A DNA stretch of 64,000 bases, taken from the IMG/VR virus record IMGVR_UViG_3300028920_001939; one strand, written 5' to 3'. A program made the position numbers and the translations under genes. Under the pieces are notes generated by a model that saw only the letters and a program-made list of their open reading frames with translations, did no database searches and was not told the DNA's origin. Shown here one piece after another: positions 38,531 to 61,209 of this stretch. This DNA is from a virus (lineage: Duplodnaviria; Heunggongvirae; Uroviricota; Caudoviricetes). The first letter of the stretch is position 1. Each line of letters opens with the position of its first letter.

Positions 38531-39067
38531 ATGTTTGATGTAGAAGCAAAAGAAGCTAATGTTTCATCTTTAGAGTTGTTATTGATGAGAAGATTAGAAA
38601 AGGCGTTTGAAGCAGTTGATGCACATCAAGGAGAAATCTTTGATGAGATTGTAGAAGAAATGGAAATGTTATTCAAGTTGAAACCAAAGATATACAAACA
38701 ACTACTTGCTTACAAAGAAGAATTAACTAAAAACATAACAATATTAGCTGAACGAGCAGGACAGTTAGCAGGCGCCGCTAGAAACGAGATACAAAGAAGG
38801 GCATTTTATGAAGGTGAAGTAGATTCGATTGAATGGGATGCAAGAAAAGATTATCTTGACCAGATTGTATCAATAATGGGAACTAACCAAATGATACCGA
38901 TGGAAACTGTAGAACCAGCAACGCTTGAAAGAGCAGAACCGATTGAAGAAGCACCAGAAGAAGAAGAAGAAACTACTGATGAACCAGAAGAAAAACCTTT
39001 AAAAAAGAAAGATAAACCAAAATTATCATTTACACCTAAAAAATCTGATAAAGAGTTTGAAGTATAA
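38531..39067 (+). CDS. Hypothetical protein with acidic C-terminal tail (scaffold-like?)
   Basis: C-terminus EEAPEEEEETTDEPEEKPLKKKDKPK. Confidence 0.45.
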   Translation: MFDVEAKEANVSSLELLLMRRLEKAFEAVDAHQGEIFDEIVEEMEMLFKLKPKIYKQLLAYKEELTKNITILAERAGQLAGAARNEIQRRAFYEGEVDSIEWDARKDYLDQIVSIMGTNQMIPMETVEPATLERAEPIEEAPEEEEETTDEPEEKPLKKKDKPKLSFTPKKSDKEFEV

Positions 39068-39942
39068 TGGTATCAAAGTTAGAGATTATTGCAGGTCAAA
39101 TTCGTGATAGAATTCATAATCATGACCCTGACCACGGTGGAGTGTTTTTAGAAGTAACAGGATCACCAGGTTCAGGAAAAACAAGTTCTATGTTATCAAT
39201 GATAAGAACTATAATGAAAGAGCATCCTGATGAGAAGATATTTTTCAGTAATACTTATTTTGCGCCTATGCAGAGTTTGAGAATAGGTATGGAGAACCAT
39301 AAGATACTTATTAAGAGAGGTGCTAAAGTTACCTTTCACGATAGGGATAAGAGATTGAAACAGATTTATCCTAAAATTACATATTTCTCTGATTTTGATG
39401 AATTGTATGATAGTGCAGAAGCAGGTAAGATAAATGCTGTTTTCTTTGGTAATAGAGCTGAATGGAGAAAATTTTTACATTACTTGCGAAGTGTTGGGGA
39501 ATGGTGCCACGTATGTTTTGATGAGTTTGGTGAAGTAGCACCTGCTCATAAAGCGGGAAAAGAGTATTGGAATATAGGTAAATTCTCTGATGATTTGAAA
39601 GAAGTAAGAAAGTGTATGATAAACGTATTTGAGAACACACAATCAGTTACAGATATTGATTTTAGGGTTAGAACGAAAATAATGGTCTTTATTTATTTAC
39701 CTGGAGCAAGAGCAAACAAGAATGGTAGAGTTACACAAGCAGCAATTGATAATTTAGATTTGAATCGTAAAAAGGGTAATGAGGCGTATCTTGAGTTTTC
39801 TGGTCGTTTCGGTAAACTACGTTTTAGAGATATATTTCCTCCAGCGAAACAACATTGGGAAGCAAGAATACCTGAAGTTTTAGAAGGAGAAGAAGATGAA
39901 CAAAAAGGAAACGAAAGCGCTTCAAGTAAGAGCGACTCTTAA
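39067..39942 (+). CDS. P-loop NTPase (candidate FtsK/HerA- or A32-like packaging ATPase; function unproven)
   Basis: Walker A VTGSPGSGKTSS at about aa 35. Walker B HVCFDEFGE at about aa 150. 291 aa with no additional recognizable domain. Confidence 0.5.
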   Translation: MVSKLEIIAGQIRDRIHNHDPDHGGVFLEVTGSPGSGKTSSMLSMIRTIMKEHPDEKIFFSNTYFAPMQSLRIGMENHKILIKRGAKVTFHDRDKRLKQIYPKITYFSDFDELYDSAEAGKINAVFFGNRAEWRKFLHYLRSVGEWCHVCFDEFGEVAPAHKAGKEYWNIGKFSDDLKEVRKCMINVFENTQSVTDIDFRVRTKIMVFIYLPGARANKNGRVTQAAIDNLDLNRKKGNEAYLEFSGRFGKLRFRDIFPPAKQHWEARIPEVLEGEEDEQKGNESASSKSDS

Positions 39943-40354
39943 AGATACACGGCGACGTCAAGATGAACTTTTTGAACTTCTTCGTAAAAAAATATATTAT
40001 AACACATCATTAAGTATTGAAGAAAGAAAGATTTTTTCTGGCTTAACTTCAGAAGCAATGCTTTCACAAGCGTATAGGCATTGTTATTATCTTGCGCCTG
40101 ATAACAAAAGAATAGATTTAGGTTCAATACGTTTTTTATGTCTTAATTTGTTAGATGTATCTGGCAAAGCTATCAATATAAAGGATCCAACAACTGATAG
40201 TAAATATAGAGTATCAATAAAAGAGATTTGGGAAATTTTGTATAATAAGTGCAAAGAAACAAGTCAAGCAGCGCTAAGAGAAGCGTTGAAGATGAGTAAA
40301 GAGTTACCTAAAAGAGAAGAACCAACTTCACTTGATTACTCCTCTGAAGATTAA
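39896..40354 (+). CDS. Hypothetical protein
   Basis: 152-aa ORF overlapping the upstream gene end. Confidence 0.4.
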   Translation: MNKKETKALQVRATLKDTRRRQDELFELLRKKIYYNTSLSIEERKIFSGLTSEAMLSQAYRHCYYLAPDNKRIDLGSIRFLCLNLLDVSGKAINIKDPTTDSKYRVSIKEIWEILYNKCKETSQAALREALKMSKELPKREEPTSLDYSSED

Positions 40355-40355
40355 A

Positions 40356-40385
40356 GTATGGATAATTACACAATCTTTATAAACT
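40356..40385 (+). promoter_or_regulatory. Conserved promoter architecture GTATGGATAATT-N-TTTATAAA (copy upstream of SPFH gene)
   Basis: GTATGG lies 20 nt upstream of a TATA-box-like TTTATAAA. The same arrangement is found at 41446, 43123 and 46553. Confidence 0.4.
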
Positions 40386-40422
40386 ATTTTTTGATTTTGT
40401 TTTTTAAAAGGTGATATAAAAA

Positions 40423-41253
40423 ATGAAAACGAAAAGTATGTTGACGCTGATGATTTTCATAGTGATGCTTGGTGTGATCGCTATAGTATTTACAACATGC
40501 ATAACAATAGTACCTGCAGGGCATGTTGGAGTACATGATTTATTCGGTAAAGTAAGTAAAGATGAATTTCAACCAGGATTGAAGTTTAAGAATCCATTTG
40601 CTCATATTGAAATGATGAGTGTAAAAACACAAGAATATACAATGACATATACAAAAGGTGAAGGAGCAATTCACGGATCAGATGTTATATCTTCTCTAAC
40701 AAAAGAGGGATTAACAGTTAATTTAGATATGACAGTTCTTTATCGTTTGAGATCAGATTACGCAAACGAAGTCTATAAAACTATTGGACCTGATTATGTT
40801 AATGTTATTGTAAGACCACAAATCAGAACAGCAATACGAGATGTAGTGGCTTTATATGAAGCAAAACAAATCTATAGTGCTGATAGACAAAAAGTTGCAC
40901 TAGAGATTTTTGATGAAATGGAACCTGTTTTATCAAAAAGAGGGATAGTATTAGAAAGTGTTTTATTGAGACATGTACAACTTCCAGCAGAATTAACTAC
41001 AGCAATTGAGGCAAAATTAACTGCTGAACAAAATATAGAAAAGAAAGCTTTTGAAGTTCAGGAAGCACAACAAGAAGCAAATAGAAAAAGAGAAGAAGCA
41101 CGAGGTATAGCCGACGCAAATATTATTATATCAAATAGTTTAACTAACAATTATTTGAGATGGTATTGGATAAACGGGTTACAAGAGCAAGATTCAATCT
41201 ATTATGTGCCTGTTGGTTCTGACGGATTACCTATAATGAAAATTATAGAGTGA
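40423..41253 (+). CDS. SPFH/band-7 (prohibitin/stomatin-like) membrane protein
   Basis: N-terminal TM then IVPAGHVGVHDLFGKV...PGLKFKNPF...TQEY, characteristic of SPFH domains. Coiled-coil, Glu/Ala-rich C-terminus. Confidence 0.65.
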   Translation: MKTKSMLTLMIFIVMLGVIAIVFTTCITIVPAGHVGVHDLFGKVSKDEFQPGLKFKNPFAHIEMMSVKTQEYTMTYTKGEGAIHGSDVISSLTKEGLTVNLDMTVLYRLRSDYANEVYKTIGPDYVNVIVRPQIRTAIRDVVALYEAKQIYSADRQKVALEIFDEMEPVLSKRGIVLESVLLRHVQLPAELTTAIEAKLTAEQNIEKKAFEVQEAQQEANRKREEARGIADANIIISNSLTNNYLRWYWINGLQEQDSIYYVPVGSDGLPIMKIIE

Positions 41254-41258
41254 TAAAC

Positions 41259-41441
41259 ATGACCGTTTTTTCAAGGGAAGAAGAAGTAAGAGCAATTTCT
41301 TCTGCTTTTCTTTCTCTTATTTTATTTATAACAACTATTATCTCTGGATTTTCAGGTTCGCCTATTTGGGTAGGTCTTTTTATAATATCAGTTGCTTTTT
41401 TAATACCTATAATAAGAATATTTTTAGAACAAACAGAATAG
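41259..41441 (+). CDS. Small 2-TM protein downstream of the SPFH gene
   Basis: Track ORF 41250 (GTG); the ATG at 41259 is likely. Two TM helices. Confidence 0.35.
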   Translation: MTVFSREEEVRAISSAFLSLILFITTIISGFSGSPIWVGLFIISVAFLIPIIRIFLEQTE

Positions 41442-41445
41442 TTTG

Positions 41446-41507
41446 ATATGGTAAATACCGAAATCTTTATAAAGCGATAAAACATTCTACCTATGGAGTG
41501 ATCTGAA
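41446..41507 (+). promoter_or_regulatory. Conserved 60-nt promoter/5'UTR element, copy 1 (upstream of MoxR/CobS-like gene)
   Basis: ATACCGAAATCTTTATAAAGCGATAAAACATTCTACCTATGGAGTGATCTGAAATG is about 85% identical to the copy at 43123-43187. Contains a BRE/TATA-like segment and a GGAGTGA SD. Confidence 0.5.
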
Positions 41508-42719
41508 ATGAACGAGCAAAATTCCCAAAAAAAGCAATTGAGTTATCAAGATGTGAAAAACATCTTAGAGAATTTTAAAGATAAGAAAGATTTTGATATT
41601 AAAGTTGATAAATTAGGTGCTATTACTGTAAAGTATAACGGTAAAAATCAAGAGTATTTTACCGAAAGAAATTACGGCATAGCACACGGCTATCAAAAGA
41701 GTGGTAGTTGGAATACTGATAAGTTACGAGATTATCAATCTTTAGAAAGAGCAATTAACAATCTTTTTGATGATAATTATCAACATAGTGTTATACCTAA
41801 AGAAATAACAGTAGAACACAAACCTGTTGATACATCTGAATACAAATCTCTTATACCTGAAAACTTTAAGTATTTTACAAGAGAGTTATGTGGCAACTTA
41901 ACTGATTATGAAGTTTTTGAGAGAGCACTTGAGCAAGGTAAGAATGTGTTACTTATCGGTCCTACAGGTTCAGGTAAAACTACTTTACCACGATATTATT
42001 GTGCACAACATAAAACACCTTACATTAGAGTATCACTAAACGGCGGTTGCACAGTAGAAGATTTAGTTGGACATTACGTTATCAAAACTGATGAACACGG
42101 TAATCAAGTAACAGAGTGGGTTGACGGACTTTTAACAATTGCTTGCCGTAAAGGGTATATAGTTGTTTTAGATGAGATAAACGCCGCTTCAAGTGAAATC
42201 TTATTCAAACTGAATTCTTTACTTGATGATGAACGTATCTTAATCCTTTCAGAAAAGGACGGCGAAATAGTAAATCCACACCCAGAGTTTCGTTTTATCG
42301 CCACTTGTAATCCAACAGAACTGGGTTATTCTGGAACAAAAGAACTTAATGAGGCATTACTTGATAGATTTCAAATGATTATGTATGTTGATTACAACGA
42401 GCAAGTTGAACGTAAAATCTTGAAACAGATACTAAAACTTGAAGATGTTGATAAAGTCCAGAATTTCGCCAAAGCTGTAAGAAGTGCTTACACTAACGCT
42501 GAGATACTTACACCACTATCTACAAGAACACTTATCAATCTCGCCGATTTAATGAATCAGGGAATGACAGATTTAATAGAAAACAGGTTCAAAGAATCAG
42601 AGAGAACGATAATATCTGACCAGATAGATATGCACATTAAAACGAAAAACAAACTAAACGAAGATAATGAGGGAGTTGGTAACGCTGATGATACCACTCC
42701 AACTACTCCCTCATCTTAA
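41508..42719 (+). CDS. MoxR-family AAA+ ATPase, CobS-like
   Basis: Walker A LLIGPTGSGKTTL. Walker B VVLDEINAA. Sensor region RFIATCNP...LLDRF, typical of AAA_5/CbbQ/CobS proteins. Confidence 0.7.
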   Translation: MNEQNSQKKQLSYQDVKNILENFKDKKDFDIKVDKLGAITVKYNGKNQEYFTERNYGIAHGYQKSGSWNTDKLRDYQSLERAINNLFDDNYQHSVIPKEITVEHKPVDTSEYKSLIPENFKYFTRELCGNLTDYEVFERALEQGKNVLLIGPTGSGKTTLPRYYCAQHKTPYIRVSLNGGCTVEDLVGHYVIKTDEHGNQVTEWVDGLLTIACRKGYIVVLDEINAASSEILFKLNSLLDDERILILSEKDGEIVNPHPEFRFIATCNPTELGYSGTKELNEALLDRFQMIMYVDYNEQVERKILKQILKLEDVDKVQNFAKAVRSAYTNAEILTPLSTRTLINLADLMNQGMTDLIENRFKESERTIISDQIDMHIKTKNKLNEDNEGVGNADDTTPTTPSS

Positions 42720-42738
42720 TCTTTTTGAGGTCGATTAA

Positions 42739-42918
42739 ATGAAAACTGTAAAAGAGATACATAAGGGCTATCAAACAAGAACAACAATATTTATAATGTT
42801 ATCTATACCTATTGCTATTGGTGGATATATTTTAAATAATAATTTTATATTGGGATATGGTATAGCATCACTTATTGTTGCATTCTCTTTATATCCTAGC
42901 CCAAAAGATTGTAGGTGA
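42739..42918 (+). CDS. Small 2-TM protein
   Basis: Not in the track (59 aa). Confidence 0.3.
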   Translation: MKTVKEIHKGYQTRTTIFIMLSIPIAIGGYILNNNFILGYGIASLIVAFSLYPSPKDCR

Positions 42919-42924
42919 AATAAG

Positions 42925-43122
42925 ATGAAAAGAAATGAGTTGTTAGATTGTTTATTTAGTTACGGTTTATCATTAGGTATTATATGTATTGCTGTTTTTG
43001 CTATACTATTATCATTGAAACTTGATAGTGTTATACCACAGTTTGCTTTTCTTGGTTTATATGGTGTTGGTAGTGCATCATTAGCTATTGGAATGTTATC
43101 AGATATTGTGTTGAGTAGATAA
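42925..43122 (+). CDS. Small 2-TM protein
   Basis: 65-aa hydrophobic ORF between the AAA+ and vWA genes. Confidence 0.35.
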   Translation: MKRNELLDCLFSYGLSLGIICIAVFAILLSLKLDSVIPQFAFLGLYGVGSASLAIGMLSDIVLSR

Positions 43123-43184
43123 GTATGGAAAACACCGAAATACTTATAAAGGGATAAATTATTCTACCTATGGAGTGAAATCGA
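43123..43184 (+). promoter_or_regulatory. Conserved 60-nt promoter/5'UTR element, copy 2 (upstream of vWA/CobT-like gene)
   Basis: GTATGGAAAACACCGAAATACTTATAAAGGGATAAATTATTCTACCTATGGAGTGAAATCGAATG. Confidence 0.5.
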
Positions 43185-45182
43185 ATGGAAATGAATAAAA
43201 CCCGGACTTTGATACGAGAGCAGAGGTTAGAAAAGTTTGCTCGTATTTTATCAAACAGATATAGTATTGAGTTGAAACTATCACCTGCTACGCATAAAGT
43301 TGGTTGTTGTGATACTACTAAAAAGATTTGGATATCATCTACGATTGATAAAGACCCAATACACAATTTACTTTTACAGAAAGCAACTGCTTTACATGAA
43401 TTAGGACATATGCTTTACACAAACAGTAAATCTTGGGAAAAGATGTGTGTTTCACCGAGATTTGCAAACATCATAGAGGACGGCAGAGTAGAAGAAGGAG
43501 TTAGCAGAATGTTTTCCAAAGCAAGATTATACTTTATCTACTTAAACAGAAAACTTAACCCAGTAGTTATTCACAAGAAAGAAGATTTAACTTTAGATAT
43601 CAATAAAATGGTATATGAGTTAGTTTTCAGAGAAGCGAAACGTAATGTTGGGATACCACAACTTCCTTTAGATATCAAATTGAAATTAAGAAGATACTTG
43701 AATGATGATTACGATTGGATACTTGAGAAAACAAGAGATTGTATAAACGCTAATACAGAAGATGAAGCAGCTAAACTTGCTTACGATTTAGAAATGAAAC
43801 TTCAATTCATAACTAAAAAAGAATGTGAAATAGGTAAATTTGATAAATCTTTAGATACTTGTGGAGCACAATCAAGACAAATGCCACAAATGACAGAAGA
43901 TGATATAGTTGATAAACTTGAAGAATTAAATAAGTTAGAACAAGAACAAATCGATAATCAAATAAAAGCAGAAGATGAGCAACAGAAATTACAAGAATCA
44001 CTAAAACAAGAACCAGAGATAAGAGAGAATATCAGTAAAACAGAATACAAACCACAAGAAGTAGAAGATGTATCAGTTGAAGAAGAAATGATTGATAATT
44101 TTTTTGGTAGAAAAACAAGTGTTGAACCAGATGATAAGAAACAAGAAGAAAAGAAAAATACTGGAAACGGCGAAACACCTGTTGATAAAGCTAAAAAACC
44201 AGATATACCTGGACAACTACCTGATATTGACGATATCACTAAACAAATAGAAGATAGTTTGAAATCGATTACTGACCAAGTTGAAGATAGAATATCAAAA
44301 GACGCTGAGAATGAATTAAGAAATGAGAATGATACTATACAATCAGGTGAAATAGATCCAGAATTTGATTCATATAATACTATTGATACTGATGATTTGA
44401 GACCAATGGGAGGTTACGGCAATTTATTACGACCTGTTGATGTTACTAAACTTGATCCTGTTGCCAGAAGAATATCAAGAAACTTTAAGATAATTGCTCA
44501 ATACGGTGACGGCTGGATACACAATCAAACTCGTGGTAGATTAGAAATGCACAAGATACACACTATCATAGATAAGAATAAAAGACCAAGAGTATTCAGA
44601 AAGAAAGATGAAGTAGAAGCAGTTGACCTTGCTGTTGTTACTTTACTGGACGCAAGTGGTTCTATGAAAACACGAAGATTCGTTGCTACTGATACTGCTT
44701 ATACAATATCAAGAGCACTTGAGTTGGGTAACTATAAATCAGAAGTTGTGCAGTTTGGTGTTAAAGCAGGTTCTACTGAAGTATTCGGTGTTAAATCATT
44801 TAATCAGAAAACACAATATGCAAGAAAGAGATTTAAACCTGTAGCAGAAGGTTATACGCCACTATTAGAGGCACTTGAGGGAGCAGATAGGTCGTTATCA
44901 AATCAAGACGCTAAACGTAAAGTGTGTTTCGTTATAACTGACGGATATCCATTTGCAGGACAAGGAAGTCAAAGTAATAAAGAATACAGAGATAAGTGTA
45001 GAAAACAAATGTTGAAAATGGAGAAACAGGGAATTACAGTAATAGGTGTTTTAATTCAAACAGATGATAGAAGAAACATGTTTCACGATAACAGAAAAAT
45101 AATATGTGAAGATGTTAATGATGTTGAGAAAAAGATGTTAGATGTATTGAAGAAAGTATTGATAAAGTTAAAGAATACTTAA
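43185..45182 (+). CDS. vWA-domain protein, CobT-like partner of the MoxR ATPase, with N-terminal HExxH motif
   Basis: C-terminal vWA MIDAS motif VVTLLDASGSMK...T...D (FVITDGYP). N-terminal ALHELGHMLY (HExxH) followed by EDGRVEEG. Central acidic, Lys-rich low-complexity linker. Confidence 0.7.
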   Translation: MEMNKTRTLIREQRLEKFARILSNRYSIELKLSPATHKVGCCDTTKKIWISSTIDKDPIHNLLLQKATALHELGHMLYTNSKSWEKMCVSPRFANIIEDGRVEEGVSRMFSKARLYFIYLNRKLNPVVIHKKEDLTLDINKMVYELVFREAKRNVGIPQLPLDIKLKLRRYLNDDYDWILEKTRDCINANTEDEAAKLAYDLEMKLQFITKKECEIGKFDKSLDTCGAQSRQMPQMTEDDIVDKLEELNKLEQEQIDNQIKAEDEQQKLQESLKQEPEIRENISKTEYKPQEVEDVSVEEEMIDNFFGRKTSVEPDDKKQEEKKNTGNGETPVDKAKKPDIPGQLPDIDDITKQIEDSLKSITDQVEDRISKDAENELRNENDTIQSGEIDPEFDSYNTIDTDDLRPMGGYGNLLRPVDVTKLDPVARRISRNFKIIAQYGDGWIHNQTRGRLEMHKIHTIIDKNKRPRVFRKKDEVEAVDLAVVTLLDASGSMKTRRFVATDTAYTISRALELGNYKSEVVQFGVKAGSTEVFGVKSFNQKTQYARKRFKPVAEGYTPLLEALEGADRSLSNQDAKRKVCFVITDGYPFAGQGSQSNKEYRDKCRKQMLKMEKQGITVIGVLIQTDDRRNMFHDNRKIICEDVNDVEKKMLDVLKKVLIKLKNT

Positions 45183-45192
45183 AGAGGTAAAA

Positions 45193-45360
45193 ATGAGCAG
45201 ATGTGATGATTGTAAAAAGAAATTCACTTGTAAAAGAAGTAAATACTACAATGGAGATAGGGAAAGTGATAGTGAAAATAAAAAACCAGCTTCTAACACG
45301 GGTTTCATTTCAATCACTCTACTATTGCTTTCCCCTCTAAAATATAAGGAGATGAAATAA
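45193..45360 (+). CDS. Small Cys-rich protein
   Basis: Not in the track (55 aa). MSRCDDCKKKFTCKRSKYY... Confidence 0.3.
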   Translation: MSRCDDCKKKFTCKRSKYYNGDRESDSENKKPASNTGFISITLLLLSPLKYKEMK

Positions 45361-45758
45361 TGGGTTTAGAAAAAAGAATTGCAGATATGTCAAAAAAGAG
45401 ATTAGAATTGTTGAAGAATCTTGTATCAGTAGGTGTGATAATATGTATTGCTTACGCTGCTATTACTTTAGCGGGATTAAGAGATCCGTTGGATTTCTTT
45501 GAAACACAAGCATTCATATACATTTGTATAACACTTTTACTGTTATCAATAGTTTGGAAATTGTTAAACGGTGCAAAGATGCATTTTCCTAATGATTTGA
45601 AAAAGAAAGATACACCGGTCAAGAAAGAATATGAACCTAAACAGAGGCAATCTTATCAGCGACCAAAGAAGTCCACTACAATTGGGTCCTGGCTTTGCCC
45701 TAAATGTGGAACCTTTGTTATAGGCGACCGATGTCCTAAATGTAAGTATAGAAGGTGA
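45360..45758 (+). CDS. Membrane protein with C-terminal zinc ribbon
   Basis: TM helices then CPKCGTFVIGDRCPKCKY. Confidence 0.5.
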   Translation: MGLEKRIADMSKKRLELLKNLVSVGVIICIAYAAITLAGLRDPLDFFETQAFIYICITLLLLSIVWKLLNGAKMHFPNDLKKKDTPVKKEYEPKQRQSYQRPKKSTTIGSWLCPKCGTFVIGDRCPKCKYRR

Positions 45759-45763
45759 TATAA

Positions 45764-46030
45764 ATGAATAGATTAATTAGATACGCTGGAATAATGTTTG
45801 CTTTCTTTATAACTGCAAACTTTTATGTTATTATGATAGTTGCTATGATAAATAATAATGCTGTAACAGTTTATTTTGATCATTTCGGCGAAGCTACAAT
45901 AGAATACATATTGTATTTTCTATTAGCACCTATACTGTTATATTCATTTTATTATGAGGTATCAAAATTTAGGAGGGCAAAAAATGCCAAAAAGAGATAT
46001 GCAAAAAATTATACTGAAAATACTAACTGA
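45764..46030 (+). CDS. 2-TM membrane protein
   Basis: Hydrophobic 88-aa ORF. Confidence 0.4.
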   Translation: MNRLIRYAGIMFAFFITANFYVIMIVAMINNNAVTVYFDHFGEATIEYILYFLLAPILLYSFYYEVSKFRRAKNAKKRYAKNYTENTN

Positions 46031-46271
46031 ATCAAAAAAGAATAATATTCCATATCTTACAAGAAAGCAGATAGTAGATAAAATTGAGAAGATTAAACCT
46101 AAAATGAAGAATGTTGATAGAAAAGTAAGTCAAGCGTTGTATTTACTGAAAATCAAACAGCATAGAAAGTGGAATGCACCTAAAGTTATACAATATGAAA
46201 AAGAAATTACTGTAGAAGGCGAAAAGAAAGTAGAAAGAGGTTGGACGATAAAAGATGAAAGTTACAGTTGA
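45984..46271 (+). CDS. Putative winged-helix DNA-binding protein
   Basis: ATG at 45984 preceded by AGGAGGG SD (track ORF starts at 45954). LTRKQIVDKI...RKVSQALYLLK is wHTH-like. Confidence 0.4.
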   Translation: MPKRDMQKIILKILTESKKNNIPYLTRKQIVDKIEKIKPKMKNVDRKVSQALYLLKIKQHRKWNAPKVIQYEKEITVEGEKKVERGWTIKDESYS

Positions 46272-46458
46272 TACACATCAATCTTGGGATATTTGGCTTT
46301 GGTATCTTATTCTTTTAACAGTTGCTTTGACTTATTATTTTTCGCATATTGGTTCTAATATGATGATTTTATCAATTATAGGTTTAATAGTTTTTTTTAT
46401 TTTGATGATAGTGAATAGTAGTGTTGCTGTAAATAAAATCAAAAATAAAAAAGTGTAG
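46255..46458 (+). CDS. 2-TM membrane protein
   Basis: 67-aa hydrophobic ORF. Confidence 0.4.
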   Translation: MKVTVDTHQSWDIWLWYLILLTVALTYYFSHIGSNMMILSIIGLIVFFILMIVNSSVAVNKIKNKKV

Positions 46459-46552
46459 GTGGATAGATGAGAGATAGAGTAAATAGCTTCCTAGCTAAAA
46501 CAATTTCCGCTTATTGTTATCTATCTTTTATTCCACAATCTACACTTTAAAA

Positions 46553-46582
46553 GTATGGATAATTCAAAAACATTTATAAATT
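46553..46582 (+). promoter_or_regulatory. Conserved promoter architecture GTATGGATAATT-N-TTTATAAA (copy upstream of 46604 gene)
   Basis: Near-identical to 40356-40385 (GTATGGATAATT...TTTATAAA with 20-nt spacing). Confidence 0.4.
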
Positions 46583-46603
46583 ATCTATTAATTCTTTTTA
46601 TTA

Positions 46604-46912
46604 ATGAAAATTATAACGCTTAAATCAGAGGAAGTCAAAATATCTTTTGATGATGATGTAAGTAAAAATTATGATATATCAACCAGAGGCGCTATAATAT
46701 TATGTTTGAAACATCTTTATCGTTATAATGAATTCTATATGCCTAAAGATATTATGGCAAGTATTTTGTTAAAAGCGTTGAGAGGTTGTAGTTGTGATAA
46801 GGATCATTTTGATATATCACAAAGATTAGCGTTGTATGATTATATCAAAGATAAGAAAATTGATGATCCATATGTAAAACAATTTATAAAAGAAACGGAG
46901 GAAAGAAAATGA
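46604..46912 (+). CDS. Hypothetical protein
   Basis: 102-aa ORF. Confidence 0.45.
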   Translation: MKIITLKSEEVKISFDDDVSKNYDISTRGAIILCLKHLYRYNEFYMPKDIMASILLKALRGCSCDKDHFDISQRLALYDYIKDKKIDDPYVKQFIKETEERK

Positions 46913-47490
46913 TAAGATTTAGTTATTCTCAAATAGAAGCAACTTTAAGTTGTGCTGATTGTGATAATAGAAATTATTGTGCTAAAGAAAGGTATAGAAA
47001 GTTGCCTACGCAAACGGCGCATATCTGTGATTCATTTGTAAAAAGAAGATATAAACCTGAAGTGAAAACAGCGTGTGTTGATTATAATCAACTTATGCAT
47101 CAACTATCAAATTGGAATTGTATAGCAGAAGGTGTAAAAAACCATCACATGTCAATTGATTGGTATGGTGGTTTAAAAGATGATAAAATTCCTGGTTTTA
47201 CTGAATGTTTAATCTTTATTGAAATAAATAAGATATTTATGGAATACTTAACTGAATTCAAAGAAATGTTGTTGCATAGCAATTCAATTTTAGAGTTACT
47301 TTTGCAAACTGTTTATTCTGTTGATATGAACAATAGCAAAGTATCAATATATACGAAGGATAAACTTTTGTTAGAAAGAATTGAGAACTATTTGCATATG
47401 ACAGATTTTAAGTTAAGAGAAGATACCTATGAAAATATAATGGGTATAAGTAAAGATAAAAATAGAATAATGCAATATATTGTATTATAG
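46909..47490 (+). CDS. Hypothetical Cys-rich protein
   Basis: N-terminus CADCDNRNYC...HICDSF. ATGA overlap. Confidence 0.45.
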   Translation: MIRFSYSQIEATLSCADCDNRNYCAKERYRKLPTQTAHICDSFVKRRYKPEVKTACVDYNQLMHQLSNWNCIAEGVKNHHMSIDWYGGLKDDKIPGFTECLIFIEINKIFMEYLTEFKEMLLHSNSILELLLQTVYSVDMNNSKVSIYTKDKLLLERIENYLHMTDFKLREDTYENIMGISKDKNRIMQYIVL

Positions 47491-47501
47491 GAGATGAAAA
47501 A

Positions 47502-48149
47502 ATGCTGAAAGTAGAAGCAACAATAGAAGAAGTAGTAAATGGCGAAGTTACACAACTTCGAATAGGTGATGATGTCTATTATATAACACATATTGGTTAT
47601 TATAAAGACATCGAAGAAGCTGATGATAAACAACCGATACCACAAGATAGTGTTTTAGAAAAGGGAAAGAAGATTGCTCAGATAAATCATTCTGCAGTAT
47701 ATGAAAATATATTCAATGATATAATCGAACATTTAGGTTCGAAATATGATCGTGATATGTATAGAAATATTGTAAAGAGATATTACAGAGATAGTCCTGA
47801 TTCAACAATTAAAAGTTTAATATCAACCTACAAAAGAGCAGTAGAAAATAAGTTTGATGGGACTTTAGAGAAACCACAACGAAGATACAAAAGATATAGA
47901 AGAAGAAAACCTGCAGGTGCGATTGGTAAAGATAAAACATATAAAGTTTGGATAAAAGAAGATGATTACAATAAAGTTAAGAGAGCTATGTTTACATTTG
48001 GAGCAACGCCTACAACAGATTTTATTGCAAGAGAAAGTGGTTTGACAGTAGACAAAGTAAGAGCAGTTGTTCATTATATGATTGATGAGGGAAAGGTAAA
48101 AAGAACAACAAATGAAGATGGTAGTGTATTTTACTCTTATACGGGGTAA
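47502..48149 (+). CDS. Hypothetical protein
   Basis: 215-aa ORF. Basic patch RRYKRYRRRKP. Confidence 0.45.
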   Translation: MLKVEATIEEVVNGEVTQLRIGDDVYYITHIGYYKDIEEADDKQPIPQDSVLEKGKKIAQINHSAVYENIFNDIIEHLGSKYDRDMYRNIVKRYYRDSPDSTIKSLISTYKRAVENKFDGTLEKPQRRYKRYRRRKPAGAIGKDKTYKVWIKEDDYNKVKRAMFTFGATPTTDFIARESGLTVDKVRAVVHYMIDEGKVKRTTNEDGSVFYSYTG

Positions 48150-48253
48150 TACCTACTTTTATTTTTTCTCTACCATAAAAAAATCAAAACTTTTATAAAG
48201 ATAAAAATCATTAACATTTTTTATCACAACCGAGAGGGATTTGTAATGGGAAT

Positions 48254-49651
48254 TTGTTTCTCCTAATCGCCTCTTTCGCTGTGGAGTTGGTGGCAACATT
48301 TATGGTTGGTGTGGTAATCAAATCAGAGGACTTTGGCGACAAACTTATATCTGATTATTTAGAAGTTTTCGACAAATATTCTTTTAAAAACAGATTCTAC
48401 GGAAATATTGCATTACACGTTATTTTAGGACAAGCATTGAAGAATGTTTATTATAGAATTGGAAGAAGAAAAATAGATATTCGTATTCATTTTATACTTA
48501 TCAAACCACAAGGAACTGGTAAAGGCGCAGGATTTGGTTTTTGTAAGAAAGCATCAGATTGGGTTGGTTTAGATTTTCAAGTTTTATCAGAATCAACAGA
48601 TGGTGGTTTAGCAGGTTCAAAGAAATACGACGCTTCTCAAAAGAAAGATATTGTTGTGCCGGGTTTACTTGAATATGCTGATGTAGTTGCTATGGAAGAA
48701 GCTTCCATATTGATTGATTTCGCTAATGAGTTTAGCAAGAAAAATATGACTTATATGCAAATCACTATGAATCCATTGGAAGATGATTCTTGTTATATAC
48801 ATAGAAGATTAGTTGGATTAGATATCAGTTTTAAACCACACGCTTCGTTTCTACTGATGAGTTATCCACCAGATAATATTGCTGATAAGATTGTAAAAAC
48901 TGGTTTCATTGATAGAATGGTAACTGATTTTGAAGATGTAACTTTAGTTGACAGATTAGAAGTTTTAAAGAAAATAATGGAAAATGCAAATCTTGATGAA
49001 GCAGAGTGGATGGATAAAGAACAGTATGTTAAGAAAAGATTACAATATATAGTAAAGAGATATGAGAAAGGTACTATATGTATCAATATAGAAGAAAAGA
49101 TACATCAGGCAGTATTACAATGTATTGATGAAATGGCAACAATGATACTGGACGCTTCACCTAAAGCAAGAGAGAAACTTGAACACTTTATCACACGTTT
49201 GTATGAAATTTTAGTTAAGTTATCAATACATCATGCGTTGTTATCAAATAGAACTGAATTGAGAATATCAGATGTGCTTTATGCACGAATGACCTATTTG
49301 CCTATATGGAGAAATCTTATCATTAGTATTGAATCATTATTAATTATTAGTCCACAAGAACGTTTTAGAAAGCACAGTATCAAATCACAAGCGATTAAAG
49401 AATATAAGAGATTGTTGAAAGAAGGTAGATTTGTTAAACAAGATGTTTGGGTTAGAAGATTAACTATGGTTCAGAATTTACAACCTAAATGGGATAACTG
49501 TAGTATGGAAACTGCAGATAATAATTTATCAAAATTAGAAGTATTACCTAAAGAAACTTATGGAAAGTTTTTGAAGGTTTCGCAGTATGAAAAAGAAAAG
49601 ATATTCAAAAGAAAATATTTTGGAGAAACTGCATATATAAAAATGATATAA
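48254..49651 (+). CDS. Hypothetical protein with divergent P-loop-like motif (candidate packaging/terminase-like NTPase; very tentative)
   Basis: TTG start in the track. KPQGTGKGAGF is Walker-A-like and VVAMEEAS is Walker-B-like. 465 aa. No confident assignment. Confidence 0.45.
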   Translation: MFLLIASFAVELVATFMVGVVIKSEDFGDKLISDYLEVFDKYSFKNRFYGNIALHVILGQALKNVYYRIGRRKIDIRIHFILIKPQGTGKGAGFGFCKKASDWVGLDFQVLSESTDGGLAGSKKYDASQKKDIVVPGLLEYADVVAMEEASILIDFANEFSKKNMTYMQITMNPLEDDSCYIHRRLVGLDISFKPHASFLLMSYPPDNIADKIVKTGFIDRMVTDFEDVTLVDRLEVLKKIMENANLDEAEWMDKEQYVKKRLQYIVKRYEKGTICINIEEKIHQAVLQCIDEMATMILDASPKAREKLEHFITRLYEILVKLSIHHALLSNRTELRISDVLYARMTYLPIWRNLIISIESLLIISPQERFRKHSIKSQAIKEYKRLLKEGRFVKQDVWVRRLTMVQNLQPKWDNCSMETADNNLSKLEVLPKETYGKFLKVSQYEKEKIFKRKYFGETAYIKMI

Positions 49652-49662
49652 GGAGGAAAAAG

Positions 49663-49848
49663 ATGAATTATAAAAAACAACCAATGCATTGGCAAAGAAT
49701 TAGATTTTTAGTAAAAAGATTGAAACAGTATAGAACAGAAGATGAGATAATTAATGAAATAAGAAAGTTGAAATGGACAGATTTTAATGAAAATATGTCA
49801 AGATTTCAAATAAGAAACGCAAAAAGATATGAATATAAAAAGATATAA
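49663..49848 (+). CDS. Hypothetical small protein
   Basis: 61-aa ORF with AGGAGG SD. Confidence 0.4.
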   Translation: MNYKKQPMHWQRIRFLVKRLKQYRTEDEIINEIRKLKWTDFNENMSRFQIRNAKRYEYKKI

Positions 49849-49859
49849 GGAGGAAAAAA

Positions 49860-50915
49860 ATGGCTCAAATACCAGAAGATATAAAGGCAGGAATTGAAGC
49901 ATTGAGTAAAGCGAAAGATACGCCAATAAAAGATTTGTTGGAGAGATTAAAGGAGATTATCAATGAAGATGAAAATTTAAAAGCGATGGATAATGATAAC
50001 TTTAAGATTAGAGTTGCTTGGGCTGCTTTGTATAAAGAATATTCTGCTGCTCAAGGTCAAGAGTGTTTGATAACACCTTTGTTACATTGTTCACCACGAT
50101 ATATAAGAATAAAAGAAGAAAACACAGCAGTTGGTGATATATCAGCACTTGTTAAACCTTTGAAGAATGAGAAAGGTGAAGAAATAGAGTATAAATCACC
50201 AGATGAAGGTTGGCAATACGCTGCTGGAACTCTTTGGAGAGATGCTGCTGAGAAAGCAGGTGATTTAGAAGTAGGTAAAGTTTACAACACTAAAGTTATT
50301 TTGACTAACACCTATGGAGAAAAAGGTAAAAAGAGAAAAGAAAGAGATTGGGGTTTAGGTATCATAGCAAGTAACGCAACTTTTTCTGTTTCGAAAGAGA
50401 AAGCACCTGATTTCAAGAAATTCTTTGAGAAAGAGATAGAAGATAACAACGAGATAATGATGTTATCAGATGCTGATATGAATCAAAGTGCACACGATAC
50501 AGATATCAGAGTTGTAAGAATTCAGATAATGGATGAAGATTTCGGTGAAAGAGAAGATGGGAGCGAATATGCTTTCTATGATATAATGGACAACTCAATT
50601 GCAGGTGAAACTAAAAGATTCTTTATTGATAAGAGAGATTACAAGTATATGCAAGGTTCTGTTTTACTTGCTGGTGTTATAGTTAGAAATACTGCGAAAG
50701 AAGATGAAGAACCTATATTTAGATTGAACCCACAATGGTTTATACCAGAGATTGCAGAAGAAGTATCATTTGAAGAAAAGAAATCAGAAGATACAGAAGA
50801 AATTGTACTTGATGAACCAGAAGAAAAAGAGGCAGAGAAAAAGGAAGATGTGGAGGAAAAACCTGAAGCGGAAAGTGAGGAAAAGAAAGAAGAAGGGGAT
50901 TTATTCGAGATTTAA
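49860..50915 (+). CDS. Hypothetical protein with long acidic C-terminal tail
   Basis: 351-aa ORF with AGGAGG SD. C-terminus EEKKSEDTEEIVLDEPEEKEAEKKEDVEEKPEAESEE. Confidence 0.5.
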   Translation: MAQIPEDIKAGIEALSKAKDTPIKDLLERLKEIINEDENLKAMDNDNFKIRVAWAALYKEYSAAQGQECLITPLLHCSPRYIRIKEENTAVGDISALVKPLKNEKGEEIEYKSPDEGWQYAAGTLWRDAAEKAGDLEVGKVYNTKVILTNTYGEKGKKRKERDWGLGIIASNATFSVSKEKAPDFKKFFEKEIEDNNEIMMLSDADMNQSAHDTDIRVVRIQIMDEDFGEREDGSEYAFYDIMDNSIAGETKRFFIDKRDYKYMQGSVLLAGVIVRNTAKEDEEPIFRLNPQWFIPEIAEEVSFEEKKSEDTEEIVLDEPEEKEAEKKEDVEEKPEAESEEKKEEGDLFEI

Positions 50916-50952
50916 ATTTCCCTTCTTCTATTTATTATGAAGGAGGAAAGAA

Positions 50953-52026: not shown

Positions 52027-52149
52027 TGTTTTGTGAAAGAGAGTTTGGATATTTCGTTCTCCTTTCAGAAATACATCCACCTAGATATATTTCTTCACCA
52101 CACCAACTCTCCACAAAAGAACACTATGATGAAATAGAGGTGAATAAAA

Positions 52150-52914: not shown

Positions 52915-52919
52915 ATAGA

Positions 52920-56013: not shown

Positions 56014-56024
56014 GGTGAAAAAGA

Positions 56025-56177: not shown

Positions 56178-56247
56178 ATGGAAGAAGAAACATTTGGTCA
56201 AAGAGTAAAGAAACTTGCTGAAAAAGCAAGATATCTTGATATGTTAG

Positions 56248-57820: not shown

Positions 57821-57821
57821 T

Positions 57822-60368: not shown

Positions 60369-60377
60369 GGAAATTAA

Positions 60378-61208: not shown

Positions 61209-61209
61209 T

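What the first reader, a model, noticed from the sequence alone, without database searches (positions are those of the whole stretch)
41446..45182. CobS/CobT-like MoxR AAA+ plus vWA pair, each gene driven by its own copy of a conserved 60-nt promoter/5'UTR, with an HExxH motif in the vWA protein
41508-42719 is a clear MoxR/CobS-type AAA+ protein (GPTGSGKT, DEIN, RFIATCNP). 43185-45182 ends in a canonical vWA MIDAS (DASGSM...T...D), the architecture of CobT/NorD/CoxE partners. The vWA protein also carries an N-terminal HELGH zincin motif with a downstream EDGRVEEG, so it may be a metalloprotease-vWA fusion. The segments 41450-41510 and 43125-43187 are about 85% identical and contain a TATA-like CTTTATAAAG and a GGAGTGA SD directly before each ATG. 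Two tiny 2-TM proteins (42739-42918 and 42925-43122) sit between the partners. MoxR-vWA pairs act as chaperone or activation modules; in a mobile element this could be metal-chelatase hijacking (cobS auxiliary genes are known in marine viruses) or an NTP-dependent conflict or assembly system.
Basis: partly seen in the sequence, partly recalled or inferred. Interest (0 to 1): 0.7.

Follow-up and report, generated by a model that had tools for sequence, protein, structure and literature searches.

The report
Archaeal-virus CobS/CobT-like ATPase–protease-adaptor pair
An archaeal tailed virus carries the AAA+ ATPase plus vWA-adaptor gene pair already known from many viruses as "cobS/cobT"; each gene has its own copy of one archaeal promoter, and the adaptor keeps an intact metalloprotease motif that cellular CobT lacks, so it is a real but largely known feature of untested function.

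Summary
41508-42719 encodes a MoxR-class AAA+ ATPase. 43185-45182 encodes a CobT-like adaptor with a C-terminal vWA/MIDAS domain. Both genes are preceded by a roughly 62-nt element that is 82% identical between the two copies and drops to background identity outside them. The HELGH motif is invariant in homologues.

New here:
- The window is an archaeal tailed virus (PriL, RFC, ERCC4 nuclease). The repeat is an archaeal BRE/TATA promoter plus a short Shine-Dalgarno leader.
- The repeat is conserved before both genes in related viruses. Its upstream motif also precedes an SPFH gene and the first gene of the replication module.
- The adaptor's N-domain models confidently as an M48-like zincin.
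- HExxH (or HExxGH) plus MIDAS occurs in 122 of 123 relatives. Most of the distant ones sampled match viral protein families.
- The broad family profile hits solved CobT at E=1e-48. Cellular CobT has SMALR where the viral proteins have HExxH.
- The two small membrane ORFs are not conserved.

The pair was already described as viral cobST (Liu 2021) and as a MoxR plus metallopeptidase-vWA pair (Iyer 2021). Verdict: new member of a known kind. The function is unresolved; I favour an ATP-driven remodelling and cleavage module over cobaltochelatase hijack.

The parts
41436..41507 (+). Promoter/leader copy 1, upstream of the AAA+ gene. Upstream motif TATGG 41447-41451; BRE-like ACCGAAAT 41457-41464; TATA box TTTATAAA 41466-41473; conserved CATTCTACCTATGG 41483-41496 (inferred transcription start region); Shine-Dalgarno GGAGTGAT 41495-41502.
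   Evidence: Repeat D9; core pattern occurs 2x versus 0 expected; 82% identity with sharp edges; same element upstream of the orthologous genes in L008/L009.
41508..42719 (+). MoxR-class (CobS/CbbQ/NorQ-like) AAA+ ATPase, 403 aa. Walker A 151-158, Walker B D222-E223 within LDEIN 221-225, sensor-1 N268, candidate R-finger R287, candidate sensor-2 R340.
42739..42918 (+). 59-aa hydrophobic ORF with two predicted membrane segments. No own promoter, so probably co-transcribed with the AAA+ gene. Not conserved in relatives; not a core part.
   Evidence: absent in L002, L005, L007.
42925..43122 (+). 65-aa hydrophobic ORF with two predicted membrane segments. Not conserved in relatives; not a core part.
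43113..43184 (+). Promoter/leader copy 2, upstream of the vWA gene. TATGG 43124-43128; ACCGAAAT 43134-43141; TATA (ACTTATAAA) 43142-43150; GGAGTGA 43172-43178.
43185..43829 (+). N-terminal zincin-like (M48-like, CobT_N-like) domain of the adaptor, aa 1-215. HELGH is aa 71-75 (nt 43395-43409). NIIEDGRVEE is aa 95-104 (nt 43467-43496).
43830..44429 (+). Acidic low-complexity linker, aa 216-415 (27% D+E). Length and sequence vary among homologues.
   Evidence: Corresponds to the disordered linker of about 90 residues in CobT (bioRxiv 10.64898/2026.07.21.739949).
44430..44630 (+). Pre-vWA helices and 'shaft' segment, aa 416-482 (GDGWIHNQTRGRLEMHKI...PRVFRKK). It aligns to CobT 372-414, the fragment that inserts into the CobS ring.
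   Evidence: Alignments; invariant A438, G441, G451, F471, D481; role of the shaft in CobT from the preprint.
44631..45182 (+). vWA domain with a complete MIDAS: D489-x-S491-x-S493 (nt 44649-44663), T558, D586.
40357..40383 (+). Third promoter of the same class (TATGG-N14-TTTATAAA), upstream of the SPFH/Band_7 gene 40423-41253.
   Evidence: (D14).
46554..46580 (+). Fourth promoter of the same class, 31 nt before the ATG of orf102 (46604-46912), the first gene of the block that runs into the replication module. This spacing is what a leaderless archaeal transcript would show.
   Evidence: (D14); the orthologous promoter in L002 and L003 has the same upstream motif as the AAA+ promoter of that virus.

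Best explanation
This is a divergent archaeal-virus member of the two-gene module known in tailed viruses as cobS/cobT, or as a MoxR plus metallopeptidase-vWA pair.

Shown:
- The first gene encodes a MoxR-class AAA+ ATPase.
- The second encodes an adaptor built like cobaltochelatase CobT: N-domain, acidic linker, 'shaft', then vWA/MIDAS. Its N-domain keeps a complete zincin motif (HExxH plus a conserved D/E helix).
- Each gene has its own archaeal BRE/TATA promoter with the same upstream TATGG motif and the same short Shine-Dalgarno leader. That promoter class also drives an SPFH gene and the first gene of the replication block.

Inferred mechanism, by analogy with the solved CobS-CobT-CobN complex:
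1. The ATPase forms a hexameric ring.
2. The adaptor's shaft enters the pore, and its N-domain sits on an ATPase lid domain.
3. A client protein is held between the N-domain and the MIDAS face of the vWA domain.
4. ATP hydrolysis remodels the client.
5. Unlike in cellular CobT, the zincin site then cleaves the client or a bound peptide.

The client is unknown. Shared promoters with replication-module genes suggest, weakly, expression in the early or middle phase of infection. I therefore lean to a host or viral non-structural protein rather than a virion protein, but virion maturation is not excluded.
For: Identity of the two proteins.

Family membership:
- phrog_249 at 1e-55.
- The N-domain profile finds 480 cluster representatives.
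- Of the 59 aligned members (P0001 plus 58 distant hits), 37 match phrog_459 'peptidase' and 44 match phrog_1576; phrog_5298 and phrog_17276 (CobT) are also matched.
- HExxH or HExxxH with MIDAS in 122 of 123 relatives.
- The broad family profile matches solved CobT 9uka_G at E=1.4e-48 from the E-x-R-V-E helix to the C-terminus, and NorD at 2e-25.
- Solved CobT_N reads ...GDSMALRQARH... where the viral proteins read ...ALHELGHMLYT... (the register is my own alignment).

Fold:
- AF2 model pLDDT 84 with helix, three strands, then helices.
- The CobSTN preprint independently describes CobT_N as a helix, a three-stranded sheet and eight helices, 'resembling peptidase M48C'.

Context:
- Gene adjacency is conserved in six related contigs.
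- Promoters. No sigma-70 site falls on them.
- Archaeal virus: PriL, RFC, ERCC4 and PvlArgDC. All named RFC homologues are archaeal.
- Iyer et al. 2021 proposed chaperone plus peptidolytic processing for the same architecture in jumbo phages.
Against: - No biochemical data exist for any viral member. Catalysis, zinc binding and complex formation are inferred.
- Direct sequence statistics for N-domain homology to CobT_N are weak: hhalign E=0.018 for the Glu helix only, and nothing for the HExxH helix. Foldseek against the PDB gave no significant hit.
- The temporal class is inferred only from shared promoter motifs.
- One subfamily has HExxGH spacing. That spacing is functional in M49 peptidases (my knowledge) but is unusual.
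- The family's closest solved relative is a chelatase subunit, which keeps the chelatase reading alive.
Confidence: 0.45

Rival explanations
1. Auxiliary metabolic genes. The viral CobS/CobT-like pair docks onto a host CobN-type subunit and drives cobalt (or another metal) insertion into a tetrapyrrole, boosting cobalamin-dependent nucleotide synthesis during infection (the hypothesis of Liu et al. 2021). The HExxH site would then be structural or metal-handling, not proteolytic.
For: - The broad family profile is closest to solved CobT (E=1.4e-48), ahead of NorD.
- The CobT-type architecture, including the shaft, is conserved.
- Pfam CobT_C is above threshold.
- The AAA+ protein hits CobS structure sequences at 4e-22.
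- The idea is published for haloarchaeal and bacterial viruses.
Against: - Far below the equivalog cut-offs: CobS 75 versus 558 bits, CobT 29 versus 759 bits. GvpN scores higher than CobS.
- The AAA+ protein is about equally similar to CbbQ and NorQ.
- Near-universal conservation of a catalytic-type HExxH that bona fide CobT lacks is unexplained by a chelatase role.
- No CobN-like ORF among the large window ORFs scanned.
- The host is unknown. The only full-length match in genome collections is on a contig binned with a Micrarchaeota MAG. That lineage usually lacks cobalamin synthesis (my knowledge).
Confidence: 0.25
2. Virion-assembly chaperone. The pair folds, assembles and proteolytically matures tail or other structural proteins, as proposed for jumbo phages and shown for the MoxR/vWA pair p618/p892 of Acidianus two-tailed virus.
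For: - Iyer et al. 2021 proposed this for the same architecture, and there is an ATV precedent (cited).
- The window carries a large set of big adhesin-like or tail-like proteins (fn3, BNR, DUF2341, DUF4815, dockerin-like repeats) that might need assisted assembly.
Against: - The pair lies outside the structural block. It shares its promoter class with the first gene of the replication module, not with structural genes.
- In halovirus Hardycor1 the pair is also placed in the replication/accessory module.
- An apparently cellular copy in a Helarchaeota contig is flanked by lipid-metabolism genes.
Confidence: 0.2
3. NTP-dependent conflict (defence or counter-defence) module of the MoxR-vWA ternary type.
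For: - Pfam bpMoxR scores 27.7 bits against a cut-off of 27.
- MoxR-vWA cores are used in such systems, occasionally with metallopeptidase effectors.
Against: - No third component (VMAP, beta-propeller or similar) is adjacent in any of six relatives.
- PADLOC gives only weak matches (E of 4.5e-4 or worse), most of them short stretches around the P-loop.
- The bpMoxR hit lies under a much stronger AAA_5 hit.
Confidence: 0.07

Closest known systems
Viral cobS/cobT two-gene cluster of tailed viruses (T4-like cyanophages; haloarchaeal Druskaviridae and Saparoviridae; SSU5-like, Rhizobium and Gordonia phages), Liu et al. 2021, PMC8651126
   Same: - An AAA+ gene next to a gene for a CobT-like vWA/MIDAS protein.
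- phrog_249 hit at 1e-55.
- The N-domain fold matches the vWA proteins of HVTV-1, HCTV-2 and HHTV-2 in BFVD.
- The cyanophage partner annotated 'peptidase' matches residues 4-111.
   Different: - Very divergent. tblastn finds only 15 phage records for the adaptor, none covering 80% or more.
- The close family is 19 metagenomic proteins.
- Each gene has its own duplicated archaeal promoter.
- The host is a different, unidentified archaeon with low-GC viruses.
MoxR AAA+ plus N-terminal-metallopeptidase-vWA pair of group 2.2 jumbo phages (Iyer et al. 2021, PMC7824862)
   Same: Same domain architecture and same predicted chaperone/co-chaperone logic, with a zincin fused to the vWA partner.
   Different: That paper did not link the pair to CobS/CobT. 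Here the link to solved CobT is shown. The genome is about 101 kb and archaeal, not a jumbo bacteriophage.
Cobaltochelatase CobS-CobT(-CobN), PDB 9uka and related entries; bioRxiv 10.64898/2026.07.21.739949
   Same: - MoxR-class hexameric motor.
- Adaptor with an M48-like N-domain, disordered acidic linker, pore-inserting shaft and vWA/MIDAS.
- The shaft and vWA align residue by residue.
   Different: - Cellular CobT_N has no HExxH: SMALR in the aligned position by my manual alignment.
- Scores are far below the equivalog cut-offs.
- The AAA+ protein has an extra N-terminal region of about 130 aa.
- The linker is about twice as long.
- No CobN is in view.
CbbQ-CbbO (Rubisco activase), NorQ-NorD and RavA-ViaA MoxR/vWA chaperone pairs
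   Same: Same AAA+ clade (CbbQ 1e-21, NorQ 6e-19), with a MIDAS-bearing adaptor (NorD 2e-25 to the family profile).
   Different: To my knowledge those adaptors have no zincin domain. Their clients are defined metalloenzymes encoded nearby, and no such client gene is adjacent here.
ATV p618/p892 (Acidianus two-tailed virus)
   Same: An archaeal-virus MoxR ATPase plus vWA protein pair with a chaperone role.
   Different: No peptidase domain (as stated in PMC7824862). It belongs to a non-tailed crenarchaeal virus. Sequence relationship was not tested here.

Membership tests
MoxR-class AAA+ ATPases (Pfam AAA_5; CobS/CbbQ/NorQ/GvpN group) | AAA+ core with Walker A, Walker B, sensor-1, arginine finger and sensor-2; family HMM above threshold | tested here: met
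   AAA_5 104 bits versus cut-off 22. Motifs at 151-158, 221-225, 265-269, R287 and R340. PDB sequence hits to CobS, CbbQ, NorQ and midasin.
MoxR-class AAA+ ATPases | Helix-2 insert and pre-sensor-1 beta-hairpin lining the pore | not tested
   No structure model of the ATPase was made. Only implied by homology to CobS/CbbQ.
Cobaltochelatase subunit CobS (NCBIfam TIGR01650 equivalog) | Score at or above the curated equivalog cut-off | tested here: not met
   75.1 bits versus 558.55. GvpN (TIGR02640) scores higher at 88.2, also below its cut-off.
Cobaltochelatase subunit CobT (NCBIfam TIGR01651 equivalog; Pfam CobT PF06213 N-terminal family) | Score at or above the equivalog cut-off; match to the CobT N-terminal family | tested here: not met
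   28.7 bits versus 759.05. PF06213 matched none of the 19 close homologues and only 3 of the 59 members of alignment A3.
CobT-like adaptor architecture | N-domain, then acidic disordered linker, then pore-inserting shaft, then vWA with MIDAS | tested here: met
   Pfam CobT_C 38.9 bits versus cut-off 21. Family profile versus 9uka_G E=1.4e-48 over CobT 105-621. Shaft region aligned. Linker composition.
Class I (ATP-driven) chelatase system | A CobN/ChlH/BchH-type large subunit available to the pair | not testable with these tools
   No such domain in the large window ORFs scanned. About 37 kb of the viral contig lies outside the window. The host is unidentified.
vWA domain with MIDAS | D-x-S-x-S, T and D motif residues | tested here: met
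   D489, S491, S493, T558 and D586 are invariant in 19 homologues. D/S/S is invariant in the 59-member alignment A3.
Zincin metallopeptidases (gluzincin / M48-like) | HExxH on the active-site helix, plus a downstream acidic third ligand on a following helix; mixed beta-sheet before the active-site helix | tested here: met
   - H71, E72 and H75 invariant; D99, E103 and E104 invariant in the close family; E98/D99 invariant in the wider sample.
- Model topology: H2-23, E29-33, E40-42, E47-51, H58-78, H91-109.
Zincin metallopeptidases | Zinc binding and peptide-bond hydrolysis | not testable with these tools
   Needs protein biochemistry.
Viral cobST / MoxR plus metallopeptidase-vWA gene pair | Adjacent AAA+ and zincin-vWA genes in a tailed-virus genome; matches to the phage families | tested here: met
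   - Adjacency in the window and in L002, L003, L005, L007, L009.
- phrog_249 at 1e-55; phrog_1576 at 4e-23; phrog_459 at 1e-5 on the HExxH region.
- BFVD fold matches to viral vWA/CobT proteins.
Archaeal BRE/TATA promoter | TTTAWAWA-type box preceded by a purine-rich BRE, about 25 nt upstream of the transcription start, in an archaeal genetic system | tested here: inconclusive
   - Sequence features are present: ACCGAAAT then TTTATAAA, with the ATG 34 nt after the box. The orf102 copy has leaderless-type spacing.
- The same layout with TTTATATA occurs in relatives.
- The replication genes are of archaeal type, and no sigma-70 match falls on the elements.
- The transcription start itself is not mapped.
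MoxR-vWA ternary conflict systems (Kaur et al. 2020) | A third core component (VMAP, beta-propeller, etc.) and effector domains next to the MoxR-vWA core | tested here: not met
   No such neighbour in any locus. PADLOC gives only weak matches, most of them short stretches at the P-loop.

The most novel reading that the evidence does not exclude
The viral (and some archaeal) CobT-like adaptors are the catalytically live form of an ancient two-component AAA+ protease. In this reading a MoxR ring threads or positions a MIDAS-captured client against an M48-like zincin. Cellular cobaltochelatase CobT would be a descendant that lost the protease site and was recruited to hold CobN. The genes annotated 'cobS/cobT', including the cyanophage pair that Liu et al. 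2021 describe as part of the core genome, would then be a dedicated targeted-proteolysis machine rather than cobalamin genes.
Probability: 0.3. Interest if true: 0.65.

Novelty: new member of a known kind. Interest (0 to 1): 0.38.

Why it matters
By itself the locus adds a divergent archaeal-virus branch to a gene pair already catalogued in many tailed viruses.

It is useful for three reasons:
- It makes explicit that practically all viral CobT-like proteins keep a protease-type zinc site that the structurally solved cellular CobT lacks. This argues that the routine 'cobalamin biosynthesis' annotation of these viral genes may be wrong, and it gives a simple mutational test.
- It provides a clean example of a conserved archaeal-virus promoter class with an upstream motif shared by a small regulon.
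- It shows that the two partners are kept on separate but matched promoters in several lineages, which hints at controlled stoichiometry.

Tried and rejected
- **RNA element in the leader.** No Rfam match at E up to 1 in 40300-46700. Folds of the leaders are not better than shuffles (z from 0.0 to -1.8). The five copies show no compensatory changes.
- **Bacterial sigma-70 promoter.** Consensus matches are not enriched (37 versus 32.9 expected) and none lies on the repeats.
- **Larger duplication.** Rejected; identity falls to background within 25 nt on both sides.
- **Pfam family for the N-domain.** None. Only single-member marginal YgjP and M78 hits.
- **N-domain profile versus PDB sequences.** No hit at E up to 10.
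- **Foldseek versus PDB.** Nothing significant (best E=0.63, an M1 aminopeptidase).
- **AFDB50 fold search.** Library unavailable.
- **hhalign of N-domain profiles against the solved CobT_N sequence.** Only the Glu helix aligns, weakly (E=0.018). The equivalence of the HExxH helix with CobT's 'SMALR' rests on architecture and my manual register.
- **Small TM ORFs as a third subunit.** Rejected; there is no sequence conservation among relatives, and they are absent in three lineages.
- **SPFH plus AAA+ plus zincin as an FtsH/HflKC-like membrane protease set.** Considered because of the shared promoter. The SPFH gene is not linked to the pair in most relatives, so this is left as a weak idea.
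- **Defence-system reading.** No PADLOC support.
- **Host identification.** The genome-contig scan gave only a Micrarchaeota-binned 11.8-kb contig and a Helarchaeota chromosomal copy. RFC homologues point to archaea generally, not to one lineage.

Full report
**1. The observation**

All ORFs exist as described. The 403-aa product of 41508-42719 is a MoxR-class AAA+ ATPase:
- Pfam AAA_5, E=8e-30.
- Full-length match to phrog_249, the phage 'CobS / porphyrin biosynthesis' family, E=1e-55.
- Sequence hits to solved CobS (4e-22), CbbQ (1e-21), NorQ (6e-19) and the midasin AAA modules.
- Walker A, Walker B and sensor-1 lie at 151-158, 221-225 and 265-269.

The 665-aa product of 43185-45182 ends in a vWA domain (Pfam CobT_C 1e-9, VWA 2e-7). 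Its MIDAS is complete: D489, S491, S493, T558 and D586, all invariant in 19 homologues. HELGH (71-75) is invariant in the same set, as are N95, D99, G100, R101, E103 and E104.

The two upstream segments are 82% identical over 61 nt (50/61). The flanking 25-nt blocks fall to 16-52% identity, and random 61-mer pairs from the window average 29%. The 45-nt core pattern occurs exactly twice in 64 kb, against 0 expected.

**2. What the window is**

All genes lie on one strand, GC is about 32%, and there are no tRNAs.
- Downstream of the pair are a PriL-type primase large subunit, an ERCC4/HhH nuclease, an RFC small subunit with Rep_fac_C, a Cas4-like nuclease and a pyruvoyl-dependent decarboxylase.
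- Upstream are large fn3, BNR, DUF2341 and DUF4815 proteins and dockerin-like repeats, typical of tail or adhesion modules.
- Every named cellular homologue of the RFC protein is archaeal: Thermoplasmatales, Nanohaloarchaea, Pacearchaeota, Halobacteria, Methanomassiliicoccaceae, at 37-41% identity.
- The exact adaptor protein lies on a 101,246-bp metagenomic contig.

I read this as an archaeal tailed virus. The host lineage is unresolved.

**3. The repeated 60-nt element is an archaeal promoter plus leader**

Each copy reads TATGG-(A/T)AAA-(T/C)-ACCGAAAT-NN-TTATAAA-N8-(C/T)ATTCTACCTATGGAGTGA, with the ATG 5-6 nt after it.
- A purine-rich ACCGAAAT directly before TTTATAAA is the archaeal BRE/TATA layout (established knowledge).
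- The ATG is 34 nt after the box. A start about 25 nt downstream of the TATA centre would give a leader of about 12-15 nt that begins at the Shine-Dalgarno GGAGTGAT. This is inference; no transcript data are available.
- No sigma-70-type site falls on the elements. No Rfam family matches. The leaders do not fold better than shuffles.

Comparative evidence:
- The element is conserved nearly base for base upstream of the orthologous genes in related viruses whose adaptor proteins are only 64-74% identical. It precedes both genes in L009 and the adaptor gene in L008, whose contig does not reach the start of the AAA+ gene.
- In more distant relatives (L002, L003, L007) each of the two genes again has its own (G)AAAC(C/A)-TTTATATA promoter.
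- In L002 and L007 the two promoters share a virus-specific upstream motif, RTATTAAA, at the position of TATGG.
- One relative (L005) has no separate promoter for the adaptor gene.

Within the window, TATGG-N14-TTTATAAA occurs four times at one mismatch or fewer, against 0.77 expected; 1 of 100 shuffles reached four. All four are intergenic and on the coding strand. They precede the SPFH/Band_7 gene (40357), the ATPase (41447), the adaptor (43124) and orf102 (46554). orf102 opens the block that runs into the replication genes, and its spacing is of the leaderless type. The orf102 orthologues in L002 and L003 carry the same upstream motif as the ATPase promoter of their own virus. The pair therefore belongs to a small conserved promoter class shared with the replication module.

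**4. The small ORFs**

The 59-aa and 65-aa ORFs between the partners are hydrophobic, with two segments each. They have no own promoter.

The same slot holds different content in relatives:
- one non-hydrophobic 61-aa ORF in L009;
- one hydrophobic 66-aa ORF and one non-hydrophobic 127-aa ORF in L003;
- an uncalled small hydrophobic reading frame in L008;
- nothing in L002, L005 and L007.

There is no sequence similarity among the ORFs compared (window, L009, L003). They are not part of the core module.

**5. The adaptor protein**

No Pfam model covers residues 1-230. An AlphaFold2 model built on the 19-sequence alignment is confident (pLDDT 84.2, pTM 0.82). It shows an N-terminal helix, three strands, a long helix carrying HELGH, and then a helix carrying NIIEDGRVEE.

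Fold comparisons:
- Foldseek against the PDB found nothing significant.
- Foldseek against predicted viral structures matched the N-termini of many viral vWA or 'CobT' proteins. These include haloarchaeal viruses HVTV-1, HCTV-2 and HHTV-2, and Gordonia and Brevibacterium phages (E down to 2e-5, TM about 0.6).

Family size and motif conservation:
- A profile of the N-domain searched against 1.84 billion representatives found 480 clusters at E of 1e-3 or better.
- A sample of 58 distant hits are proteins of about 410-850 aa, nearly all of 500 aa or more. Together with P0001 they form the 59-member alignment A3. Of those 59, 37 match phrog_459 ('peptidase'), 44 match phrog_1576, and others match phrog_5298 or phrog_17276 ('cobalamin biosynthesis' / 'CobT').
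- In that alignment H71, E72, H75, E98, D99 and the MIDAS D/S/S are invariant.
- Over all 123 fetched relatives of at least 450 aa, 112 have HExxH, 10 have HExxGH, and 122 have the MIDAS. The one exception looks N-terminally truncated.

**6. Relation to real CobT**

- The broad family profile hits solved CobT (9uka_G) at E=1.4e-48, in one alignment from CobT residue 105 to 621. NorD follows at 2e-25.
- The alignment starts at the helix 'AIFDAVEQARVEAI', which is matched to 'NILEDaRIErl'. It runs through the acidic linker.
- It then covers the segment Q373-R413, which aligns with our 438-482, and continues through the vWA domain.
- A 2026 preprint on CobS-CobT-CobN (bioRxiv 10.64898/2026.07.21.739949) reports four relevant points. 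CobT_N is a helix, a three-stranded sheet and eight helices 'resembling the peptidase M48C domain', and it binds the small (lid) domain of CobS. Q373-R413 is a 'shaft' that enters the CobS ring on nucleotide binding. The MIDAS is D422/S424/S426/N518/D546. [quoted passage not shown]
- Our model has the same order of secondary-structure elements and the same fold class.
- The solved CobT_N sequence, retrieved, reads ...TRGLGDSMALRQARHNP... where the viral proteins read ...QKATALHELGHMLYTNS.... In my manual register HExxH is replaced by SMALR. The E and R of the following helix are kept.
- Caveat: sequence statistics for the N-domain alone are weak. hhalign aligns only the Glu helix, E=0.018. Homology of the N-domains therefore rests on shared architecture, fold class and that motif.

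**7. Membership**

The pair is a member of the viral AAA+/zincin-vWA ('cobST') family and of the MoxR/vWA superfamily. It is not an equivalog of CobS or CobT: 75 versus 558 bits and 29 versus 759 bits, with GvpN scoring above CobS. No CobN-type protein is in view. No third component and no meaningful PADLOC hit supports a conflict system.

**8. What is already known**

- Liu et al. 2021 (PMC8651126) reported that a cobST two-gene cluster is widespread in tailed viruses of bacteria and archaea. [quoted passage not shown]
- Iyer et al. 2021 (PMC7824862) described a MoxR ATPase plus vWA co-chaperone 'fused to an N-terminal metallopeptidase domain' in jumbo phages. They proposed virion assembly with proteolytic processing, citing ATV p618/p892.
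- Dyall-Smith et al. [quoted passage not shown]
- In the papers I could search, I found no experimental test of any viral member.

**9. Mechanism**

Shown: the domain composition, the conserved motifs, the conserved adjacency, and the separate matched promoters.

Inferred by analogy with CobSTN:
- a ring-forming motor;
- shaft insertion and N-domain docking on the lid;
- a client held between the N-domain and the MIDAS;
- ATP-driven remodelling.

Inferred from near-universal conservation of a catalytic-type zinc site that the chelatase CobT lacks: the client, or a peptide of it, is cleaved.

The promoter class shared with the replication module and the genomic position argue mildly for an early or middle, non-structural role. 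I give the remodelling-plus-cleavage model 0.45, CobN hijack 0.25, virion-assembly chaperone 0.2 and a conflict system under 0.1.

**10. Other relatives**

A Micrarchaeota-binned 11.8-kb contig (L042) carries RecT, AAA_5, an HExxH-vWA protein, a Cas4-like nuclease and a DnaG-type primase, so it is likely another virus. A Helarchaeota 844-kb contig (L053) carries an AAA_5 plus HExxH-vWA pair between thiolase and acyl-CoA dehydrogenase genes. The live-zincin form therefore also occurs in what looks like a cellular context.

**11. Verdict**

The added value is threefold: the archaeal promoter regulon, the demonstration that the small ORFs are incidental, and the contrast between viral HExxH-bearing adaptors and the protease-dead cellular CobT. 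That contrast gives a concrete test of the long-standing 'viral cobS/cobT' annotation.

Noticed in passing
window 33009-35314 (also 4904-4952 and 6843-6910): At least eight small, mostly tandem ORFs share a block of about 68 nt at or near their starts that encodes '...LKRLGLEKEFxxW...'. This looks like an expanded paralogous family of small proteins (families D1, D4, D7).
   Followed up: no
window 25259-27689: Five copies of a 57-nt repeat that encodes dockerin-like 'DGDINIVDVTxVTxHYGE' segments, spread over adjacent ORFs of the presumed tail/adhesion module (D2).
   Followed up: no
window 17311-17401 and 17575-17665: Two neighbouring reading frames, the second a 96-aa ORF, share a 77%-identical start encoding a hydrophobic N-terminus (MKTRFGFIDPGAIMG...). 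The first is preceded by a TTTATATA box at 17257. They may be pilin-like or membrane proteins.
   Followed up: no
window 40357-41441: An SPFH/Band_7 gene (Pfam 1e-34) is followed by a 63-aa two-segment membrane ORF and driven by the same TATGG-N14-TTTATAAA promoter class as the ATPase and adaptor genes. An FtsH/HflKC-like functional link was considered. The SPFH gene is not linked to the pair in most relatives.
   Followed up: partly
proteins P0053, P0063, P0074, P0083, P0086, P0102, P0121 (distant relatives): A subfamily of the zincin-vWA proteins has HExxGH (for example AHEAAGH) instead of HExxH, followed by NILEDARVNHLL. The one-residue-longer spacing recalls the HELLGH motif of M49 dipeptidyl-peptidase III (the M49 comparison is from my own knowledge).
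   Followed up: partly
L053 3777-8463 (Candidatus Helarchaeota MAG, 844-kb contig): An AAA_5 protein (728 aa) and an HExxH-plus-vWA protein (805 aa, 'AIHEAWH...NIIEDGRIEE') sit between thiolase and acyl-CoA dehydrogenase genes. This appears to be a cellular copy of the live-zincin pair.
   Followed up: partly
L042 (Candidatus Micrarchaeota MAG, 11.8-kb contig): RecT, AAA_5, a 788-aa HExxH-vWA protein, a Cas4-like nuclease and a DnaG-type primase lie in a row. This is probably a viral contig binned with a DPANN genome and is the only full-length relative found in genome collections.
   Followed up: partly
window 45183-64000 versus L001 (ENA contig k141_4173328): The 101,246-bp ENA contig ends 3.4 kb after the adaptor gene, whereas the window continues 18.8 kb further. 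The window's RFC protein is nevertheless recorded on a contig of exactly that length (101,246 bp). This suggests a circular or circularly permuted genome.
   Followed up: no
window 38531-40354: A three-gene block lies just upstream of the pair; in the window the SPFH gene and a 63-aa ORF intervene. It comprises a 178-aa protein, a 291-aa P-loop protein (GSPGSGKTS; phrog_22963 1e-17) and a 152-aa protein. ORFs of similar sizes hold the same position in L002, L003 and L007. The function is unknown.
   Followed up: no
window 57789-63623: The right end of the window carries a weak radical-SAM-like ORF, a pyruvoyl-dependent decarboxylase-like ORF (HDC/PvlArgDC) and a 624-aa N6/N4 DNA methyltransferase with a second methyltransferase domain.
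   Followed up: no
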